Under the pieces are notes generated by a model, which searched no databases, was not told the origin of the DNA, and was given only the letters and a program-made list of their open reading frames with translations. A stretch of DNA of 64,000 nucleotides, taken from Acidovorax sp. Lineage in GTDB: Bacteria; Pseudomonadota; Gammaproteobacteria; Burkholderiales; Burkholderiaceae_C. Positions 16,084 to 58,448 of the stretch are shown one piece after another. The first letter of the stretch is position 1. The number at the start of each line of letters is the position of its first letter. Where the stretch lies: contig NZ_JBKDRI010000159.1 of assembly GCF_046341535.1 (NCBI RefSeq), positions 4,745 to 68,744 of the forward strand. The letters are read 5' to 3'. The position numbers and the translations under genes are program-made.

Positions 16084-16134
16084 ACAGCCTGCGATTGTAG
16101 GGTTGCGTTGCTCGGTAGGACGTAAAATCCGCAC

Positions 16135-16347
16135 GTTGGTGCTCGCGGTGTGGTTCACATGCCGCAGTTCAACGGGAAGCAGGAAGGCCTCGCCGCAACA
16201 CGGCGTGCCCAGCCTGCGCTGCCCCCGCAACGGTCAGCGGACGAATCGCGTTTTTGATTCTCTCTCCATCCATACGCCACTGGGTGCCTTGAACAAGCAC
16301 CTGGGAAGGCATTGGGGGGTGTTCCGCCAGCCCGGATACCGGCCAAC
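16135..16347 (+). promoter_or_regulatory. Cobalamin (AdoCbl) riboswitch
   Basis: AACGGGAA, GCTGCCCCCGCAACGGT, GCCACTG, GGGAAGG and AGCCCGGATACC core motifs; TAAAAT -10 at 16123; upstream of btuB. Confidence 0.93.
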
Positions 16348-16443
16348 ACGGTGGTTGCGCGTGCCTCACTCAGGCGCGCGCTGCCGTATCACCCATTTGC
16401 TGGCGGGGAGGCCGGCGCGGGTTGTTTGTTGACGAAAAATCCT

Positions 16444-20537: not shown

Positions 20538-21344
20538 ATGCAAAACGCTCCTGAAAAGATAGCTTTCAGCGCAGACGCAATCAGCGTAACCGTGGGAAAA
20601 CACCGCGTTTTGCACCCCATCAGCCTGCATCTGGCAGCGGGGCGGTGGACCAGCATCGTCGGCCCCAACGGCGCGGGCAAATCGACCTTGCTGCGCGCGC
20701 TGGCAGGCCTGCTGCCATGCACCGGCAGCGTTCAGCTCCTGGGTCGCCCGCTGGCCGCCTGGCACCCCCGCGACCGGGCGCGGGCCCTGTCGTGGCTGGG
20801 CCAAAACGAGTTGGCCGCCGACGATTGGCGGGTGTATGACCTGGCCATGCTGGGCCGCCTGCCGCACCAGCCCTGGCTGGCCTCCCCCAGCGATGCCGAC
20901 CATGCTGCCGTGGAGCAGGCCCTGCGCGCCACCCGGGCCTGGGACTGGCGCCACCGTGCGCTGGGGCAGCTTTCGGGCGGCGAGCGCCAGCGCGTGCTGC
21001 TGGCGCGCGCCTTGGCCGTGCAGGCCCAGGTGCTGCTGATGGATGAACCCCTGGCCAACCTCGACCCACCCCACCAGTGCGACTGGCTGCTGCTGATGCG
21101 TGACCTGGTGGCTCAGGGCAAGACGGTGGTCAGCGTGCTGCACGAGGTGTCGTTTGCGCTGCAGGCCGACGACGTCGCCATCCTGGCCGAGGGCCGCCTG
21201 ATCGGTCATGGCCCGGCCCACGATGCGGCCACCCACCGTGCGCTGGAGCAGGTGTTTGACAACCGCATTGCCATCCATTCGGCCCAGGGCCAGTGGGTGG
21301 CCTTGCCCTGCCTGCCGTCCGGCGGTGCCCCGGCTGCAGGTTGA
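20538..21344 (+). CDS. btuD: Cobalamin ABC ATPase
   Basis: Walker A GPNGAGKS, LSGGERQR signature, LLMDEP. Confidence 0.88.
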   Translation: MQNAPEKIAFSADAISVTVGKHRVLHPISLHLAAGRWTSIVGPNGAGKSTLLRALAGLLPCTGSVQLLGRPLAAWHPRDRARALSWLGQNELAADDWRVYDLAMLGRLPHQPWLASPSDADHAAVEQALRATRAWDWRHRALGQLSGGERQRVLLARALAVQAQVLLMDEPLANLDPPHQCDWLLLMRDLVAQGKTVVSVLHEVSFALQADDVAILAEGRLIGHGPAHDAATHRALEQVFDNRIAIHSAQGQWVALPCLPSGGAPAAG

Positions 21345-21390
21345 GCTTTTTGCGACGAGCTTTCTCCCTGCTGCATCGGGTGATTGATGA

Positions 21391-21448
21391 TTATTTTTGG
21401 CCGTTTACGCTTGCCAGTATTGCCCTGATAGCTATTATTTTGATAGTG
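21391..21448 (-). repeat. Dispersed bipartite ~57-bp element, copy 1 (intergenic, btuD-cobQ)
   Basis: Minus strand cactatcaaaataatagct-atcagggcaa-tactgg-caagcg-taaacggcc-aaaaa aligns without gaps to the copies at 38671, 56159 and 58115. Confidence 0.7.
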
Positions 21449-21526: not shown

Positions 21527-23059
21527 GTGTCTGCCCCGACCCCTGCCATGCCCCCACATTCACCCACCGGCATTCACCCAGCGCGCTGCGTGATGGTGCT
21601 TGGCACCTCCAGCGGAGCGGGCAAAAGCTGGCTTGCCACCGCCTTGTGCCGCTACTACAGCCACCTGGGCCTGCGGGTTGCTCCGTTCAAGGCGCAGAAC
21701 ATGAGCAACAACGCCCGGGTTGTCTCCAGCGCCAGCGGCCAGGGCGAGATCGGATCGGCCCAGTACTTCCAGGCGCTTGCAGCCCGCGCCGAGCCTGAGG
21801 TTCGCATGAACCCGCTGCTGCTCAAGCCCGAAGCCGACACCCGCAGCCAGGTCGTGCTGATGGGGCAGGTGAGCGCCGAGCTCACCGCCATGCCCTGGCG
21901 CAGTCGCAGCGAAGCAGTGTGGCCACAGATCGCTGCGGCGCTGGATGCTTTGCGTGCCGAGAACGACGTGGTCGTGATCGAAGGCGCAGGTTCCCCCGCC
22001 GAAATCAACCTGCACGCCAGCGATATCGTGAACATGCGTGTGGCACGCCACGCCGGGGCGCGTTGCCTGCTGGTGACCGACATCGACCGGGGCGGCGCCT
22101 TTGCCCACCTCTACGGCACCTGGGCACTCCTGCCCGAGACCGAACGCGCCCTGATCAGCGGCTTTGTGCTCAACAAGTTTCGTGGCGATGCCAGCTTGCT
22201 GGCCCCCGCCCCGCAGATGTTGCAGGACCTGACCGGTGTGCCCACGGTGGCCACCATCCCTATGCAGTGGCGTCACGGCCTGCCCGAAGAAGACGGCGTG
22301 TTTGACGACCGCACCCTGGCCGCAGGCCCGGTGCACACCACGGTTGCCGTGACTGCGTACCCGCGCATCAGCAACCTCGATGAATTCCAGCCCCTCAAGA
22401 ACGTGCCTGGCGTGCGGCTGCGGTGGGTGCGCAGCCCGGCGGACCTGTCCGATTTGAAGACCCCCGACTGGCTGGTGCTGCCCGGCTCCAAGTCCACGGC
22501 CGCCGACCTGGCCTGGCTGCGCGCTCAGGGGCTGGACGAGGCCATTGCCGCCCATGCAGGGCGGGGCGGTACGGTGCTTGGCGTGTGTGGCGGCCTGCAG
22601 ATGCTGGGCGAGGCACTGATCGACACCGCAGGCATCGACGGCAACGCGCCCGGCCTGGGCCTGTTGCCGCTGGTGACCACCTTCGAGGTGGCCAAGACCG
22701 TGCGGCGCACGCAGGTGCAGTTTGGCGCACTTCAGGGCCCTTGGGCCGCGCTGGCCGGTGTGAGCGTGGCAGGTTATGAAATCCACCACGGCCAGACCGT
22801 CCAGCACCCGGCGATGGCCGCCCGTGGCGATGTGGCCCTTGAGGTCGTCCCGGGCATCGCCTGGCAAAACCCGGCGGGCAATGTGCTGGGTGTGTACCTG
22901 CATGGTCTGCTGGAAGATCCCGCCGCCCTCAAGGCACTGTGGGGCCACGGCGCGGCACCCGTGCCCACGCTCGATTCGGTCTTCGAAGGCCTTGCCGAGG
23001 TTGCCGCCACGCACTTCACCGAGGGCTTTTTGCAGCGCCTGCTCCAGCCCGCAGCCTGA
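21527..23059 (+). CDS. cobQ: Cobyric acid synthase
   Basis: GTSSGAGKS, PFKAQNMSNN, EGAGSPAEINL, GVCGGLQMLG, GYEIHHG, GVYLHG. Confidence 0.95.
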   Translation: MSAPTPAMPPHSPTGIHPARCVMVLGTSSGAGKSWLATALCRYYSHLGLRVAPFKAQNMSNNARVVSSASGQGEIGSAQYFQALAARAEPEVRMNPLLLKPEADTRSQVVLMGQVSAELTAMPWRSRSEAVWPQIAAALDALRAENDVVVIEGAGSPAEINLHASDIVNMRVARHAGARCLLVTDIDRGGAFAHLYGTWALLPETERALISGFVLNKFRGDASLLAPAPQMLQDLTGVPTVATIPMQWRHGLPEEDGVFDDRTLAAGPVHTTVAVTAYPRISNLDEFQPLKNVPGVRLRWVRSPADLSDLKTPDWLVLPGSKSTAADLAWLRAQGLDEAIAAHAGRGGTVLGVCGGLQMLGEALIDTAGIDGNAPGLGLLPLVTTFEVAKTVRRTQVQFGALQGPWAALAGVSVAGYEIHHGQTVQHPAMAARGDVALEVVPGIAWQNPAGNVLGVYLHGLLEDPAALKALWGHGAAPVPTLDSVFEGLAEVAATHFTEGFLQRLLQPAA

Positions 23060-23112
23060 CCCCATGGCTTGCCGGGCCTTGCCGCAGCCCCATCATGCTT
23101 GCCTTGAACCTA

Positions 23113-23222
23113 TTGAGTCGGCACCTTTGAACTTGAACCAGCCGTTCGGGCTGAGCCTGTCGAAGCCTTGCGCAGAGCTTCGAACCGCATCAACGCATTC
23201 AAGTTGGTTGATGCCGACTCAA
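23113..23222. mobile_element. Hairpin MITE/REP-like element A (110 bp), TA-flanked
   Basis: 11-bp terminal inverted repeats TTGAGTCGGCA/TGCCGACTCAA each flanked by TA; internal CCGTTCGGGCTGAGCCTGTCGAAGC...GCTTCGA palindrome. Confidence 0.7.
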
Positions 23223-23224
23223 TA

Positions 23225-23450
23225 AAAACGGCAGTTGGATGCATTTGCCAGCGCTGCTTTTGGGGTGCCAGGCAAGGCGCGACGACGCGGCAGGCTCGCG
23301 CCTGCAAGGAGGAGCAACACCGCATGGCGCTCCAAAAGCGGTACTGGCAAGTGCATAGCGCTGTCACCCCCAAGGTGAGGCTGCAAAAACAACGCAAGGC
23401 CCGAGTCCACGCGGTGTGCGGCAAGATTAAAAGCGGTCAACTGCCGTTTT
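23225..23450. mobile_element. MITE-like element B (226 bp), TA-flanked
   Basis: 13-bp perfect terminal inverted repeats AAAACGGCAGTTG/CAACTGCCGTTTT flanked by TA; internal 32-bp stem and a 6-bp hairpin. Confidence 0.72.
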
Positions 23451-23591
23451 TAGGATGATTGAAGGTATTGCGAAGACTGTTCAAAACCGGGGTGATTCAC
23501 TTGCGGTTGAAGAACTGATTTGGTTCGAAATCCGGGTCTGAATTCATTGAGTGTGGCGAATGCTGTTGGTGCATCCGCCTGGCTCAGGCTA

Positions 23592-38236: not shown

Positions 38237-38662
38237 TCAGCGATAACCGATGAAAAAAATGGCAATGTTGACCAAAAAGGCAGCCGCCCACACGGCGCTG
38301 CGCACCATCGGCATGTCTGACACGTACATGAGGATGTAGAAGATGCGCAGCATCACATAGGCAAAAGCCAGGATATCGAGAAGCGTCTGCCCGGCACCCA
38401 GCGTGTGCGCGATGATGACTGCGCCGATAAAGAACGGCAAGGCTTCAAAACTGTTGGCCTGCGCGGCATTGGCGCGGGCACGCCAGTCACTTTGCCGGGC
38501 AAGCCAGGCCCTGGGCTCATGGTTGTCGTAGCCCCCGTCCTTGGGCGGTTTTCCGAGCGCACCGCTTTTGGCCAGCCATGCGCAGGCAATCGGCAAGAGC
38601 GCCGCGATCAGCACACACCAATACGCCACCGTGAAGCGCGCCACATGTATCGTTGTATTCAT
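38237..38662 (-). CDS. MAPEG-family membrane protein
   Basis: GYDNHEPR and RANAAQANSFEALPFF. Confidence 0.85.
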   Translation of the reverse strand: MNTTIHVARFTVAYWCVLIAALLPIACAWLAKSGALGKPPKDGGYDNHEPRAWLARQSDWRARANAAQANSFEALPFFIGAVIIAHTLGAGQTLLDILAFAYVMLRIFYILMYVSDMPMVRSAVWAAAFLVNIAIFFIGYR

Positions 38663-38670
38663 TTCATCAA

Positions 38671-38727
38671 CTTTTTTGCGCACTAGCGCACGTCAGCAAA
38701 GCGTTTCTAGCTATTGATTTAAGAGTA
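38671..38727 (-). repeat. Dispersed bipartite ~57-bp element, copy 2 (recR-MAPEG intergenic)
   Basis: Minus strand tactcttaaatcaatagct-agaaacgctt-tgctga-cgtgcg-ctagtgcgc-aaaaaag. Confidence 0.65.
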
Positions 38728-38878: not shown

Positions 38879-39469
38879 CTAACGCCGGTCCACCAAGGCA
38901 TGCGCGATGGTGCCCAGGTCCACGTATTCCAGTTCACTGCCCACCGGCACGCCCCGGGCCAGTCGCGTGACATGCATGCCACGCGCCTTGAGCACGTCGC
39001 TGATCACGTGGGCCGTCGCTTCGCCCTCTGCATTGAAGTTCGTCGCCAGGATGACCTCCTGCACCAGCCCGTCGGCTGCGCGATCGAGCAGCCTTTGTAA
39101 GCCGATCTCTTTCGGGCCAATCCCGTCGAGCGGGCTCAGCCGCCCCATCAGCACGAAATACAACCCCTTGAACGCACCCGTGCGCTCCAAGGCCGCCTGG
39201 TCTGCTGGCGTCTCGACCACACACAGGCGGCTGCGGTCCCGCGCAGGGTCAAGACAGGTACTGCACACCGGCGCCTCGGTGAACGTATGGCAGCGCTCAC
39301 AGTGGCGCACTGCGCCCACCGCCTCATGCAGGGCGCGCGACAGCAGTTCAGCCCCTGCCCTGTCGTGCTGCAGCATATGAAACGCCATGCGCTGTGCGGA
39401 CTTCACACCCACCCCTGGCAGGCGGCGCAGCGCCTGGATCAAGACATCGAGAGCGTTGGTAGAGGACAT
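38879..39469 (-). CDS. recR: Recombination mediator RecR
   Basis: [14 protein letters not shown]4 zinc finger, Toprim [14 protein letters not shown]. Confidence 0.97.
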
Positions 39470-39502
39470 GAACAACGCATTAGGCCCGCGCAGCAGCCAG
39501 CA

Positions 39503-42177: not shown

Positions 42178-42271
42178 GACGGGCCTCCTCGCATGGTGAA
42201 GCGGCCAACCGGGTCAGGTGGGGAACCAAGCAGCCCTAACCGTGGAGTCAGTGCCGGGGGTAAGGCTCGTC
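42178..42271 (+). ncRNA. ffs: SRP (4.5S) RNA
   Basis: TCAGG-TGG-GGAA-CCA-AGCAG helix-8 motif; terminal GACGGGCC/GGCTCGTC stem; TACAAT -10 at 42165. Confidence 0.9.
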
Positions 42272-42689
42272 AACCTCTTTCCAAAAGCGCTCACAAAACA
42301 GGCTTGTCGGTTCTGACAGCCACCACTACTCCCTTGCTGTACTGCCGCGCGGAGATTTTTTCCTTGCACTTTGAGCGCAAGGACCGCATGGCAAAGATTG
42401 GGGGGCTGCGGTCTGCCCCGTCACGCCCAGCGGCTGGCCACTGTTGAAACCAGGCGCTGCGCGTGCCCCCCGGCCCAATGGAACCCGGTGCTGCCTGCGC
42501 CTGCGCCGCACGATGGCATGGGGCGGCGTCAAAGTCAGTGGCCTAGCCAGACGCCCTTGCAGCCCGAACGAACGCCGCACGGTCCAGATCAACCCGCTGA
42601 TCGATCGCCCGAAAAAAATTCGCAATCGAGCGAAGGATTTCTCAGCGCAGGCCCGTTCAATAGGCATGTGCACTTACTGCATTCCCAAA

Positions 42690-55726: not shown

Positions 55727-56896
55727 TCAGAACGGGGCAACGCCTAGCAGGGCGGCGGCCTGCAGCGCCGTGGCGCGCGCGGCCCCCGGCGTGGCAGCGG
55801 TGATGTTCAGGTGGCCCATCTTGCGGCCCCGCTTGGCCTCGCGCTTGCCGTACAGGTGCAGGTGGGTGCCCGGCAGGGCGAGCACCTTGGCCCAGGCAGG
55901 GGTCTGCGCCGTATCGCCATGGGCAAACCACAGATCCCCCAGCAGGTTGAGCATGACGGCCGCGCTGTGCTGGCGCGGTGGCGTGAGCGGCAGGCCCGCC
56001 ATCGTGCGCACCTGCAGCTCAAACTGCGACACGTCGCAGGCATCTTGGCTGTAGTGGCCGCTGTTGTGCGGACGTGGAGCTATCTCGTTGACCACCAGGC
56101 TGCCGTCTTGCAGCACGAAAAATTCCACACACAGCACGCCCACGTACTGGAGACCTTCTGCTACAGATTTGGAAGCATCTATCGCTTGTGTGGCAAGCGC
56201 GGGTGGCATATTTTCTTCATAAACCTCGGTCACGGCCAGGATGCCGTCGCGGTGCAGGTTGCGCTGCACCGGCAGATGCACCATGGCGCCATCGGCCCCG
56301 CGCGCCACGATGACGGAGCACTCGAGCTGCAGCGGCAGCATCTTCTCCAGCACGCAGGGCACCCGGCCCACGGCTTCCCAGGCAGCGGCCAGGTCGGCGG
56401 CGGTTTTCACCCGCACCTGGCCCTTGCCGTCGTAGCCCATGCGGGCGGTCTTGAGGATGCCGGGCAGCAGTTCGGGCGAGACGGCGGCAAGCTGCTGGCC
56501 CGTTTCGATCACGGCATGGGGGGCGCAGGGCACGCCGCAGGCCACGAAGTGGGCTTTCTCGCGCGCGCGGTCTTGCGCCACCGACACGGCGCTGGCGGCG
56601 GGCGATACCGGGCGCTGCCGGGCCAGCGCGGCCAGCGCGGCGGCGGGCACGTTTTCGAACTCGGTCGTCACCGCATCGGCCACGCGGGCCAGTTCGGCCA
56701 GACCGGCGGGGTCTTCGTAGCCGGTCTGGATGTGGTGATGGCTCACCAGCCCGGCCGGGCTGGTGGGGTCGGCATCGAGCACAGCCGTGAAGTAGCCCAT
56801 GGCCTGCGCCTGGTGCACGAACATGCGGCCGAGCTGGCCACCGCCGAGCACACCCAGCGTCGATCCTGGAAGGAGGGGCGTGAGCGCTTCGGTCAT
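55727..56896 (-). CDS. purK: N5-carboxyaminoimidazole ribonucleotide synthase
   Basis: [39 protein letters not shown]. Confidence 0.97.
56159..56218 (+). repeat. Dispersed bipartite element, copy 3 (inside purK, antisense to coding)
   Basis: tgctacagatttggaagca-tctatcgctt-gtgtgg-caagcg-cgggtggc-atattttc; locally AT-rich codons. Confidence 0.68.
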
Positions 56897-57387: not shown

Positions 57388-57539
57388 GGTGTGTGGGGTG
57401 GCGCTGGCCGGGGCCCAAGGCCCGCTGGCGCGGTGGGTAGAACCCGTAATTTTACGTTTTGCGTTCGCGCGGCCTCCAGCGCCACCGGGCGATGGGCGAA
57501 AATGGCGGCCACGCTTCACAGGACTGCGCCCGAACCATC

Positions 57540-58448
57540 ATGATTGACGTCACCGTAGAGAATTTTGAAGACGAGGTCGTTGCCGCCTCGATGAACGTGC
57601 CCGTGCTGGTCGATTTCTGGGCCCCGTGGTGCGGCCCGTGCAAGTCGCTCGGCCCGGTGCTGGAAAAACTCGAAACCGAGTACGCGGGCCGCTTCAAGCT
57701 GGCCAAGATCGACTCTGACCAGGAGCAGCAGATCGCCAGCATGTTCGGCATCCGCAGCATTCCCACCTGTGTGTTGCTCATGGAAGGCCGGCCCGTGGAC
57801 GGCTTCATGGGCGCCCTGCCCGAAGGCCAGGTACGCGCCTTCCTGGACAAGCACATTCCCTCGGCCGAGGCCATCGAGTCCGGCATCGAGGAAGACGACG
57901 CGATGCAAGCGCTGTCGTCGGGGGATGCAGACACCGCGCTGGAGAAGCTGCAGCACGCGGTGGCGACCGACCCGGGCAATGACGACGCCCGTTTTGACTA
58001 CGTCAAGCTGCTGCTGCAGCTGGGGCACGACGACGACGCCAAGGTCGCTTTTGCGCCAGTGATTGCCAAGGCAGCCGGCTCGCTGCGCCTGGGTGCGCTC
58101 AAGACCTGGATGGATGCTATTGATTTTGTAGCTTCCAGCGCTTCAGGGGCAGGCGTAGAGGCCGAATTTGATACCAAAATTGCCGCCAACAAACGCGACT
58201 TTGACGCACGCTACGCCCGCGCCCGCCTGCTGATGGTGCAGCAGCGCTGGACCGAGGCCATGGACGAGTTGCTGGAGATCCTGATGCGCGACAAGGCTTG
58301 GGGCGAAGAGGCGGCCCGCAAGACCTATGTGTCGATCCTGGAGATCATCGAGCCGCCCAAGGTCAAGGTCGCCGAGGGGCAGATCCCGCCCGAAGACCCG
58401 GTGGTGGCAAGCTACCGCCGCCGCCTCAGCTCGGTGGTGCTGAGTTGA
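57540..58448 (+). CDS. cnoX: Chaperedoxin CnoX/YbbN (thioredoxin plus TPR)
   Basis: VDFWAPWCGPCK, IRSIPT; TPR helices; YRRRLS C-terminus. Confidence 0.9.
   Translation: MIDVTVENFEDEVVAASMNVPVLVDFWAPWCGPCKSLGPVLEKLETEYAGRFKLAKIDSDQEQQIASMFGIRSIPTCVLLMEGRPVDGFMGALPEGQVRAFLDKHIPSAEAIESGIEEDDAMQALSSGDADTALEKLQHAVATDPGNDDARFDYVKLLLQLGHDDDAKVAFAPVIAKAAGSLRLGALKTWMDAIDFVASSASGAGVEAEFDTKIAANKRDFDARYARARLLMVQQRWTEAMDELLEILMRDKAWGEEAARKTYVSILEIIEPPKVKVAEGQIPPEDPVVASYRRRLSSVVLS
58115..58170 (+). repeat. Dispersed bipartite element, copy 4 (inside cnoX, sense)
   Basis: tgctattgattttgtagct-tccagcgctt-cagggg-caggcg-tagaggcc-gaatttg. Confidence 0.72.

What the first reader, a model, noticed from the sequence alone, without database searches (positions are those of the whole stretch)
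21391..21448. Dispersed bipartite ~57-bp DNA element present both between genes and inside housekeeping genes
Seen: four loci (21391-21448 minus, 38671-38727 minus, 56159-56218 plus, 58115-58170 plus) align without gaps for at least 41 nt. The layout is a 19-nt AT-rich dyad core (GCTA-N9-TAGC-like), a 10-nt segment mostly ending CGCTT, 6 nt, CAAGCG-like, then GGC(C) and an A/T tract. It has no terminal repeats or target duplication, and two copies lie in conserved coding regions in opposite orientations. Inference: this looks more like a selected protein-binding chromosomal signal (nucleoid organisation, topoisomerase or IHF-like site, or a REP/BIME analogue) than a simple MITE. About one copy per 16 kb here would imply a few hundred per genome. 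I cannot name a described function for it.
Basis: partly seen in the sequence, partly recalled or inferred. Interest (0 to 1): 0.8.

Follow-up and report, generated by a model that had tools for sequence, protein, structure and literature searches.

The report
Dispersed 68-bp chromosomal DNA signal
A real and ancient DNA motif of about 68 bp occurs roughly 290 times in this Acidovorax-like genome and in many related genera, and it is even written into housekeeping genes through rare codons, which points to an unidentified DNA-recognition function and not to a jumping element.

Summary
The four loci are only 43-66% alike pairwise, yet they belong to a true family. An HMM built from 85 intergenic copies finds 290 copies in the 3.3-Mb genome (1 per 11 kb) and none in the reversed genome. 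The same bases with the spacer off by one match once in 185,579 genomes.

The element is about 68 bp: TGCTAT-N7-ATAGCT, then GC..C..GCG.AA..GGC, then an A/T-rich palindromic arm (TTTTGAtTCAAAA). It shows no base-pair covariation, no terminal inverted repeats and no target duplications. Its orientation is unbiased with respect to genes or GC skew, and its spacing looks random.

About a quarter of the copies lie inside real genes such as purK, cnoX and mutS. In those three genes there is no length change against orthologues. GC3 is 0.36 inside 69 in-gene copies and 0.83 in the rest of the same genes. The same sites keep the motif across genera.

Best reading: a double-stranded DNA recognition signal, constrained position by position, for an unidentified lineage-specific protein. 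Main rival: a DNA-uptake or self-recognition signal, since Acidovorax and Verminephrobacter are naturally transformable. An IS30-family element inserts specifically into the 3' arm. Fragments of the motif were listed as unexplained in a 2017 paper. The function is unknown.

The parts
21382..21448 (-). Copy 1 (the finding). Full element, position 1 = 21448. 5' dyad CACTAT-N7-ATAGCT at 21448-21430. GCG core at 21410-21408. GGCC at 21402-21399. A/T arm to about 21382. It lies between an ABC-transporter ATPase gene (20538-21344 +) and cobQ (21590-23059 +), antiparallel to both.
   Evidence: 38.1 bits, E 2.6e-9; gene identities.
38661..38727 (-). Copy 2. Position 1 = 38727 (TACTCT-N7-ATAGCT). GCG core at 38689-38687. 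It lies between recR (38879-39475 -) and a MAPEG-family gene (38237-38683 -), co-oriented with both. Its 3' arm reaches the start region of the MAPEG gene.
   Evidence: 31.1 bits; gene identities.
56159..56226 (+). Copy 3. It lies inside purK (55727-56896 -), antisense, and encodes [23 protein letters not shown] with A/T-ending rare codons (ATA, GTA, TCT, CAA, ACA). It is not an insertion: the protein has the same length in 80 relatives.
   Evidence: 26.9 bits; the HMM hits the orthologous purK site in about 18 of 80 loci, 12 of them at 17 bits or more; AAA TCG ATA GCA kept in many genera; Pfam ATP-grasp and PurK_C.
58114..58183 (+). Copy 4. It lies inside a thioredoxin-TPR (cnoX/ybbN-like) gene (57459-58448 +), sense, and encodes DAIDFVASSASGAGVEAEFDTKI in a loop between TPR helices. 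It is not an insertion: most relatives have the same length.
   Evidence: 37.6 bits; hits at the orthologous site in L001, L004, L033, L039.
20546..20592 (+). Doubtful fifth copy at the 5' end of the ABC ATPase gene.
   Evidence: 21.2 bits with the iterated HMM; 15.4 bits, E 0.03 with the intergenic-only HMM. Below the level at which I would call it.

Best explanation
The four loci are members of an old family of about 68-bp chromosomal signals specific to Comamonadaceae.

Consensus: aaT-TGCTAT-taaattg-ATAGCT-atcAAac-GCttacgcgtCaaGCGcAAccGGCcta-TTTTgAttc-aAAAtt.

Shown here:
- A few short islands are near-invariant (GCT, AGC, C..GCG, GG, and a T or A tract), while the positions between them drift freely.
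- The two halves of the dyad are conserved as sequence, not as a base-paired stem.
- Copies do not behave as insertions. They have no TIR or TSD, and three tested genes keep their length.
- The motif is written into coding sequence by rare A/T-ending and conservative codons and is kept there across genera.
- Orientation is indifferent to transcription and to GC skew.

Inferred:
- The element acts as double-stranded DNA and is recognised by a sequence-specific protein or complex that only part of the family has, or whose 'dialect' differs between genera.
- A dimer probably sits on GCTAT-N7-ATAGC, with further contacts to the GCG/GGC islands and to the A/T-rich palindromic arm. Together these span about six helical turns.
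- Purifying selection, or a biased drive, on those contacts keeps copies in place. Copies wax and wane by point substitution.
- The role I think most likely is architectural or marking: DNA bending, nucleoid organisation or topology at about 300 fixed chromosomal places. This is comparable in number to REP/BIME or IHF-RIP sites but works through sequence and not hairpins.
- The 3' arm is also a preferred landing site of an IS30-family element.
For: - Reality of the family: (290 hits against 0 in the reversed genome).
- Profile with invariant islands.
- No covariation: mutual information only between neighbouring columns, and candidate stems pair exactly as often as the column frequencies predict.
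- No TIR or TSD.
- In-gene copies: 74 fully inside genes (34 sense, 40 antisense). With codons shuffled in genes, only 2 partly overlapping hits remain.
- Codon usage: GC3 0.364 inside the element against 0.829 in the rest of 69 host genes, Wilcoxon P = 5e-13. One frame dominates per orientation.
- No indel against orthologues in purK, cnoX or mutS.
- Rare codons conserved across genera at the same sites.
- Orthologous retention between this genome and Acidovorax sp. sic0104 (about 79% DNA identity): 7 of 12 and 6-7 of 11 syntenic copies are shared. Most 'missing' ones are sub-threshold remnants in gaps of equal length.
- Orthologous pairs: 78% identity at high-information columns against 49% at low-information columns.
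- No orientation bias with GC skew or gene strand, and spacing with CV = 1.0.
- Intergenic copies: 125 tandem, 47 convergent, 13 divergent, against a baseline of 920 / 219 / 309. This agrees with independent counts for motif fragments in A. ebreus and P. naphthalenivorans (PMC5217627).
- Patchy spread in the family: 43 of 121 genomes.
Against: - No binding protein was identified, so nothing here shows binding.
- The A/T periodicity I thought I saw is not significant (9-12 bp band, P = 0.09).
- No known nucleoid protein needs a specific 68-bp site, and a housekeeping binder would not explain why many genera of the family lack the motif.
- Two of about 23 between-species comparisons show a length difference of about 55-60 bp at a copy.
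- The intergenic spacer holding copy 1 is 245 bp, against 11-66 bp in the few relatives with the same gene pair. Some gain or loss by insertion or deletion is therefore not excluded.
- Near-invariance of the core islands is partly an ascertainment effect of the search model.
- My gene calls are home-made. The in-gene fraction is approximate, although the examples were verified.
Confidence: 0.45

Rival explanations
1. The element is a DNA-uptake or self-recognition signal for type-IV-pilus-dependent natural transformation. A surface or periplasmic DNA receptor prefers fragments that carry it. Biased uptake plus recombination (molecular drive) spreads and maintains copies, including copies created by point substitutions inside genes, as for Haemophilus USS and Neisseria DUS.
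For: - Its genomic behaviour matches USS/DUS. It is over-represented on both strands with no replichore or transcription bias.
- About 25% of copies lie in genes without length change and are written through codon choice in tolerant protein segments.
- The same sites are retained across related genera, with lineage-specific presence or 'dialects'.
- It is enriched between convergent genes.
- Acidovorax temperans, A. facilis and Verminephrobacter eiseniae are naturally transformable through type IV pili. Competition data in that study were read as selective DNA binding, and no uptake signal has been reported for them (PMC4212676).
- The motif occurs in Verminephrobacter and many Acidovorax genomes.
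- A ComEC channel gene is present.
Against: - Known uptake signals have 9-12-bp cores (about 30 bp with flanks) at about 1 per kb. This is a tripartite 68-bp motif at 1 per 11 kb.
- Spacing is random and not even.
- ComEC is present in 58 of 61 genomes of the family whether or not they carry the motif, so it is uninformative.
- The motif is also present in A. delafieldii, which gave no transformants in that study.
- The species specificity of transformation in that paper may only reflect the homology needed for recombination.
Confidence: 0.22
2. The element is an old non-autonomous mobile element (MITE-, REP- or RPE-like) that spread by insertion. It may have been mobilised by the single-copy HUH/Y1 (RAYT-like) protein or by another transposase. 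It is now largely immobile and decaying, and some copies have been co-opted.
For: - It is a dispersed family of hundreds of copies, mostly in short intergenic regions and depleted from divergent (promoter) spacers.
- Two between-species differences of about 55-60 bp sit at a copy.
- The spacer holding copy 1 is about 180-230 bp longer than in relatives with the same gene pair.
- A Y1_Tnp (PF01797) gene is present in nearly all element-rich genomes. A weak copy sits at its 3' end in several genera.
Against: - It has no TIR or TSD beyond chance and no selected hairpin.
- In purK, cnoX and mutS the copy replaces nothing and adds nothing: the proteins have the same length in relatives with and without the motif.
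- Variation is concentrated at particular positions while others are near-invariant. Neutral decay of a repeat would not give this pattern.
- Orthologous copies persist between species whose synonymous sites are saturated.
- PF01797 is also found in 60 or more genomes without the element, and its gene is not flanked by a pair of copies.
Confidence: 0.12
3. The element acts as RNA, for example as a processing or stability signal, a protein-binding RNA motif, or a small RNA.
For: - Many copies lie within about 50 nt of gene ends and would be transcribed.
- The middle of some copies can be drawn as a hairpin (CGCTTG..CAAGCG).
Against: - No covariation in any candidate stem across 289 copies.
- Both orientations are equally common relative to genes, inside and outside them.
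- An antisense in-gene copy (purK) is conserved across genera.
- No Rfam family matches, at gathering or permissive thresholds.
Confidence: 0.04
4. The resemblance is chance or a compositional artefact of A/T-rich patches in a G+C-rich genome.
For: The four loci alone are only 43-66% identical.
Against: - 13 exact pattern matches against 0.005 expected.
- 290 against 0 hits in the real and reversed genome.
- The off-by-one spacer control gives 1 match against more than 120.
Confidence: 0.01

Closest known systems
DNA uptake signal sequences (Haemophilus USS, Neisseria DUS)
   Same: It is an over-represented lineage-specific motif on both strands, in coding and non-coding DNA. In-gene copies arise without indels through codon choice in tolerant protein segments. 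Sites are shared by related genera. It has no orientation bias. Members of the host group are naturally transformable (PMC4212676).
   Different: It is about 68 bp and tripartite, where uptake signals have a 9-12-bp core. Its density is about ten times lower. Its spacing is random. No uptake bias has been shown.
REP/BIME elements of enterobacteria and pseudomonads (with RAYT)
   Same: Both occur in hundreds of copies, mainly in short intergenic regions, and are enriched between convergent genes. Both are preferred targets of particular insertion sequences (for REP this is recalled knowledge). Both are proposed protein-binding and architectural sites.
   Different: REPs are 20-40-nt imperfect palindromes with compensatory changes and are strictly extragenic. 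This element shows no selected pairing, and a quarter of its copies are inside genes. The Y1/RAYT-like gene does not track it.
Rickettsia palindromic elements (RPE) inside protein-coding genes
   Same: In both, a repeat-family sequence is translated as part of housekeeping proteins, in a preferred frame.
   Different: RPEs are insertions that add residues and are palindromic. Here the host proteins keep their length, and the motif is overprinted on native codons.
Unexplained motif pairs GCTTAT(N)5AAGCG (Acidovorax ebreus TPSY) and ATAGCT(N)22CAAAAG (Polaromonas naphthalenivorans CJ2), Tong et al. 2017, PMC5217627
   Same: The same blocks at the same spacing lie within this element: positions 26-41 and 14-47 of the profile. 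Copy numbers are similar (114 and 125). Both show an excess between convergent genes and a deficit between divergent genes. The Polaromonas pair is 14% in genes.
   Different: That paper reported only pentamer pairs in single genomes. It did not describe the full 68-bp element, its spread over genera, the in-gene overprinting, the absence of covariation or the IS targeting.
BRE, beta-proteobacterial repeat element (Hot et al. 2011, PMC3110155)
   Same: It is a repeat reported in Bordetella and in some Comamonadaceae, with some copies inside coding sequences.
   Different: BRE is about 90 bp, 69% G+C and occurs in tandem arrays (VNTR). This element is about 40% G+C and never tandem: the closest pair is 107 bp apart. 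The BRE sequence itself was not available to me for alignment.

Membership tests
REP/BIME | Imperfect palindrome whose stem is kept by compensatory changes | tested here: not met
   Across 289 aligned copies, observed pairing equals that expected from column frequencies for every candidate stem. The top mutual information is only between adjacent columns.
REP/BIME | Extragenic location | tested here: not met
   74 of 299 hits of at least 18 bits lie wholly inside called genes. This was verified for purK, cnoX and mutS.
REP/BIME | Association with a RAYT (Y1 HUH transposase) gene flanked by copies | tested here: inconclusive
   PF01797 occurs in 86 of 121 genomes, including many without the element. 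In this genome and three other genera a single weak copy lies at the 3' end of the gene, not a flanking pair.
MITE | Terminal inverted repeats | tested here: not met
   End-to-end complementarity is 6.9 of 16, against 7.1 for mismatched pairs of copies.
MITE | Target-site duplication | tested here: not met
   Direct repeats of 4-7 nt across the ends are no more frequent than between flanks of different copies.
MITE | Presence/absence as a clean insertion relative to empty sites | tested here: not met
   Three in-gene sites show no length change. Between two Acidovorax species most differences sit in gaps of equal length with sub-threshold remnants. Only 2 of about 23 comparisons show a difference of about 55-60 bp.
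RPE-like in-frame insertion elements | The copy adds residues to the host protein relative to orthologues | tested here: not met
   PurK, CnoX-like and MutS have the same length at the site in relatives with and without the motif.
DNA uptake sequences (USS/DUS) | Over-represented motif on both strands in coding and non-coding DNA, with in-gene copies lacking indels | tested here: met
   22, 45, 59.
DNA uptake sequences (USS/DUS) | Short core (9-12 bp) at roughly one per kb | tested here: not met
   The profile is about 68 bp with about 33 high-information columns, at 1 per 11.4 kb.
DNA uptake sequences (USS/DUS) | Preferential uptake of DNA that carries the motif by competent cells | not testable with these tools
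   Only literature context is available. Acidovorax and Verminephrobacter are transformable, with indirect hints of selectivity (PMC4212676).
Structured RNA family (Rfam) | Match to a curated covariance model, or covariation supporting a fold | tested here: not met
   No Rfam match on any copy at gathering threshold. A permissive search around copy 1 gave only chance-level hits. No covariation was found.
BRE (Hot et al. 2011) | About 90 bp, G+C about 69%, tandem arrays | tested here: not met
   The element is about 68 bp and A/T-rich (column AT fractions). No tandem copies were found; the closest pair is 107 bp apart. The sequences were not compared.
Motif pairs of Tong et al. 2017 (A. ebreus, P. 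naphthalenivorans) | GCTTAT-N5-AAGCG and ATAGCT-N22-CAAAAG at those spacings | tested here: met
   Profile positions 26-41 read GCTTAc-N5-AAGCG. Positions 14-19 plus 42-47 read ATAGCT-N22-CAAcnG. The genomic context statistics agree.

The most novel reading that the evidence does not exclude
The element is the so far unidentified DNA-uptake or self-recognition signal of naturally transformable Comamonadaceae (Acidovorax, Verminephrobacter and relatives). That would be a third kind of uptake signal and a structurally unprecedented one: a 68-bp tripartite signal kept in genomes, including inside housekeeping genes, by biased uptake and recombination.
Probability: 0.2. Interest if true: 0.9.

Novelty: new variant of a known kind. 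Interest (0 to 1): 0.74.

Why it matters
Hundreds of copies of one long motif are held in place for the time it takes genera to diverge, and they override codon usage inside genes such as mutS and purK. That implies a cellular machine that reads this sequence, and none is known.

Practical consequences:
- The motif marks Comamonadaceae core DNA.
- It explains local rare-codon clusters in conserved genes.
- It is a hotspot for at least one IS30-family element, which also breaks assemblies.
- It must be preserved or deliberately removed when these genes are recoded.

Tried and rejected
- Rfam, at gathering threshold on the whole window and permissively around copy 1: nothing relevant.
- Hairpin or structured-RNA reading: rejected by mutual-information and pairing tests.
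- Promoter readings (sigma-70, extended -10, sigma-54, ECF): I checked these by eye against the profile and dropped them. The invariant bases fall at the wrong positions, and copies are depleted from divergent spacers.
- Matches recalled from memory to IHF, Fis, Lrp, OxyR/LysR, KorA/KorB and H-NS sites: none fits the invariant positions. These are recollections, not tests.
- Replichore polarity (KOPS/Chi-like): no association of strand with local GC skew or gene strand.
- Helical A/T phasing: not significant (P = 0.09), so I do not claim it.
- TSD and TIR: absent.
- BRE (PMC3110155): a different element by size, composition and tandem habit.
- RAYT link: PF01797 does not discriminate.
- ComEC presence: uninformative.
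- Genes bracketed by two copies are ordinary genes such as acpS, so there is no 'master' locus.
- Synteny upstream of cobQ is too poorly conserved to decide between insertion and in-situ origin for copy 1.
- My first collection scan used a wrong spacer (N17). It turned into a negative control.
- The IS fragment gave no Pfam or NCBIfam hit, but it matched annotated IS30 transposases by tblastn.
- The search of earlier findings by sequence found nothing.
- One script was faulty and produced nothing.

Full report
**Observation**

Aligned without gaps they are only 43-66% identical, which alone could be selection from a 64-kb window.

The 16 columns invariant among them form a pattern with 13 exact matches in the organism's own 3.3-Mb draft genome. 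About 0.005 are expected from base composition. The nine new matches share the whole layout while their flanks are unrelated. Iterated nhmmer converges on about 300 copies.

To avoid circularity I rebuilt the model from 85 high-scoring copies that lie outside my gene calls. That model gives:
- 290 hits of at least 20 bits in the genome;
- none of 12 bits or more (a single hit at E<100) in the reversed, uncomplemented genome;
- only 2 partly overlapping hits still touching a gene when codons are shuffled within genes.

With this model the window copies score 38.1, 31.1, 26.9 and 37.6 bits. A fifth candidate at 20546-20592 is doubtful (15.4 bits).

An accidental control is the most telling result. 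The pattern TGCTAT-N7-ATAGCT-N17-C-N2-GCG-N-AA, where I had mis-set the spacer by one, matches once in 185,579 genomes.

**Anatomy**

Conservation runs from about -2 to +67 relative to the T of TGCTAT. There are three parts:
- a 5' dyad, TGCTAT-N7-ATAGCT, with an A/T-rich spacer;
- a middle part with islands GC (26-27), C36, GCG (39-41, invariant), AA (43-44) and GGC (47-49);
- a 3' arm that is a T tract or, in a minority, an A tract, followed by GAtTC and AAA. This arm is itself roughly palindromic (TTTTGAtTCAAAA).

Between the islands the bases are close to random.

**Not RNA, not a hairpin**

Across 289 aligned copies, mutual information is high only between neighbouring columns. For every candidate stem the fraction of pairable copies equals that expected from the column frequencies. 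For example, T6/A14 shows 63 C-A, 33 T-G and 20 C-G. Rfam has nothing. The periodicity of A/T content in the 9-12-bp band is not significant (P = 0.09), so I make no claim of helical phasing.

**Not a transposon in habit**

There is no target duplication and no copy-specific terminal inverted repeat beyond what mismatched pairs of copies give. Strand is unrelated to local GC skew or to the local gene strand. Distances between neighbouring copies have a coefficient of variation of 1.0.

Outside genes, copies sit in 125 tandem, 47 convergent and 13 divergent spacers. The baseline is 920, 219 and 309. In tandem spacers both orientations occur (74 against 51).

**Copies inside genes**

With a home-made gene caller, 74 hits lie wholly inside genes, 34 sense and 40 antisense. 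Inspected examples are real genes by their sequence: purK, a thioredoxin-TPR cnoX-like gene, mutS, hrpA, pepN, a formate-dehydrogenase alpha subunit, ubiA and a topoisomerase. The names other than purK and the cnoX-like gene rest on my reading of the translations and were not checked by a search.

In 69 host genes, GC3 is 0.364 in the codons covered by the element and 0.829 elsewhere (P = 5e-13). One reading frame dominates in each orientation, as stop codons in the dyad would dictate.

These copies are not insertions:
- PurK has the same length and a conserved sequence at the site in 80 relatives.
- The cnoX-like loop has the same length in most relatives.
- The MutS segment has the same length in most of 30 genera, and in every relative that carries the motif.

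The motif is written mainly through codon choice. In purK many genera keep AAA TCG ATA GCA and GAA GGA AAT ATG CCT CCA GCG CTT, whereas others use G/C-ending synonyms. In mutS, ACG CTA CAA AAA nCA GAG CTn CTT GCG ... TAT TTG nnn CAA ATT is kept in most genera. Only the most distant have normal GC3. The intergenic-trained HMM hits the orthologous purK site in about 18 of 80 loci (12 of them at 17 bits or more) and the cnoX site in the closest relatives.

**Age and turnover**

I compared 400 kb of Acidovorax sp. sic0104 with this genome. It is handle G104, identified by its 504,012-bp contig, and aligned DNA is about 79% identical.
- 6-7 of 11 syntenic copies of that genome, and 7 of 12 of this genome, have a partner at the orthologous place.
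- Four of the five unpartnered copies of this genome face a sub-threshold remnant (10-14 bits). In three of these the gap is of nearly equal length (248 against 249, 335 against 346) or the copy lies inside one continuous alignment.
- Two cases in all show a difference of about 55-60 bp.
- One G104 in-gene copy faces ordinary G+C-rich coding sequence of the same length here.

Orthologous pairs agree at 78% of high-information columns and 49% of low-information columns. Non-orthologous pairs agree at 65% and 37%. Copies are therefore old and constrained position by position, and they strengthen or fade by substitution. Occasional whole-element gain or loss is not excluded. The spacer around copy 1 is 245 bp, against 11-66 bp in the few relatives with the same gene pair.

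**Distribution**

A sequence-only covariance model finds the family in 43 of 121 genomes, one per genus, of the same family. Some 'negative' genera still keep the mutS site, so diverged dialects are likely.

**Insertion-sequence targeting**

Eighteen contig ends of this assembly stop in the two ends of one insertion sequence (terminal CGCGGATTCA...). Its C-terminal peptide matches annotated IS30-family transposases.
- Eleven ends abut the body of an element copy at its position 59/60.
- Seven abut the reverse complement of the 3' arm (...TTTTGAAT|).

All 9-10 copies of this IS therefore sit in the palindromic arm of the element. A remnant lies next to a copy in another Acidovorax genome. The element's own ends are unrelated to the IS ends, so it is a target and not a derivative.

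**Literature**

- Tong et al. 2017 (PMC5217627) list GCTTAT(N)5AAGCG in Acidovorax ebreus (114 copies; 44 convergent, 4 divergent, 59 co-oriented) and ATAGCT(N)22CAAAAG in Polaromonas naphthalenivorans (125 copies, 14% in genes) as unexplained motif pairs. Rhodoferax ferrireducens has the most pairs of any genome in that study. These are blocks of this element at the same spacing.
- BRE of Hot et al. 2011 is a different repeat: about 90 bp, 69% G+C, tandem.
- Davidson et al. 2014 (PMC4212676) show natural transformation through type IV pili in A. temperans, A. facilis and V. eiseniae. Their competition data were read as selective DNA binding, and no uptake signal is known for these species.

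**Interpretation**

Shown: the element is a real, old family with position-specific constraint that acts regardless of strand, coding status and reading frame. It has no selected secondary structure and none of the marks of transposition.

Inferred: it is read as double-stranded DNA by a sequence-specific protein or complex that not all genera have. A dimer on the dyad with further contacts along about six turns is a natural model. I put 0.45 on a cellular architectural or marking role.

The main rival (0.22) is an uptake or self-recognition signal. It explains the in-gene overprinting, the strand indifference, the lineage specificity and the known competence of the group. Its length and low density are unlike any known uptake signal.

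An old mobile element (0.12) is disfavoured by the equal-length in-gene sites, the absence of TIR and TSD, and the island-like conservation. An RNA role (0.04) is disfavoured by strand symmetry and the lack of covariation.

The Y1/RAYT-like gene does not track the element. A weak copy at its 3' end is conserved in several genera.

**Limits**

- Gene calls are home-made.
- Hit counts in other genomes are capped at 40.
- No protein was tied to the motif.

Noticed in passing
L352, L354-L357 (G000 contig ends C153:4404-4541, C122:1-138, C120:1-138, C118:9542-9679, C116:1-138), also C114, C65, C77, C168, C124 and the left-end group C21, C61, C72, C84, C89, C91, C96: An IS30-family insertion sequence has about 9-10 copies, with the body missing from the assembly. 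Every copy is inserted at the same point (position 59/60) of the palindromic 3' arm of the 68-bp element, in either orientation. A degraded remnant lies beside an element copy in another Acidovorax genome (L353:1500-1700).
   Followed up: partly
G000 contig ends (not in window; the window's own contig C159 ends on its left in one of them): At least five more repeat families end many contigs (10-21 ends each). Several have junctions at CTAG or TAG (for example CTAG|GAGCCTGTCGGACTTGG, TAG|CCCGAATATTTCAC, CTAG|TGTGCTGTCCCGC). The genome carries many insertion sequences, and they fragment the assembly into 203 contigs.
   Followed up: no
window 16120-16361 (+) and 42178-42274 (+): A cobalamin riboswitch (73.5 bits) lies upstream of the cobalamin transport and synthesis genes. 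A small SRP RNA (61.7 bits) is also present. Both are ordinary.
   Followed up: no
L101-L130 (mutS loci), site corresponding to G000:C173:5355-5423: The mutS-internal copy keeps the rare codons CTA CAA AAA ... TAT TTG nnn CAA ATT in most sampled genera. This includes some genera where the genome-wide family is not detected, and one distant genus (G020, 38 bits). That suggests a very old site or repeated re-creation at a predisposed peptide.
   Followed up: partly
G000:C157:6739-7582 (-) and L213, L216, L220 around 1070-1210: A single-copy HUH/Y1 (PF01797, RAYT-like) gene lies upstream of a 1578-aa gene. A weak element copy sits at its 3' end, conserved in at least three other genera. The gene is also present in genomes that lack the element.
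   Followed up: partly
window 23110-23453: Earlier first-reader notes of this scan describe two stacked hairpin elements at a CTAG site downstream of cobQ. They are unrelated to the 68-bp family, and I did not examine them.
   Followed up: no
L231:5716-5760: The only match in 185,579 genomes to the off-by-one-spacer pattern lies in a Sphingomonadales MAG. It is presumably a chance match.
   Followed up: no
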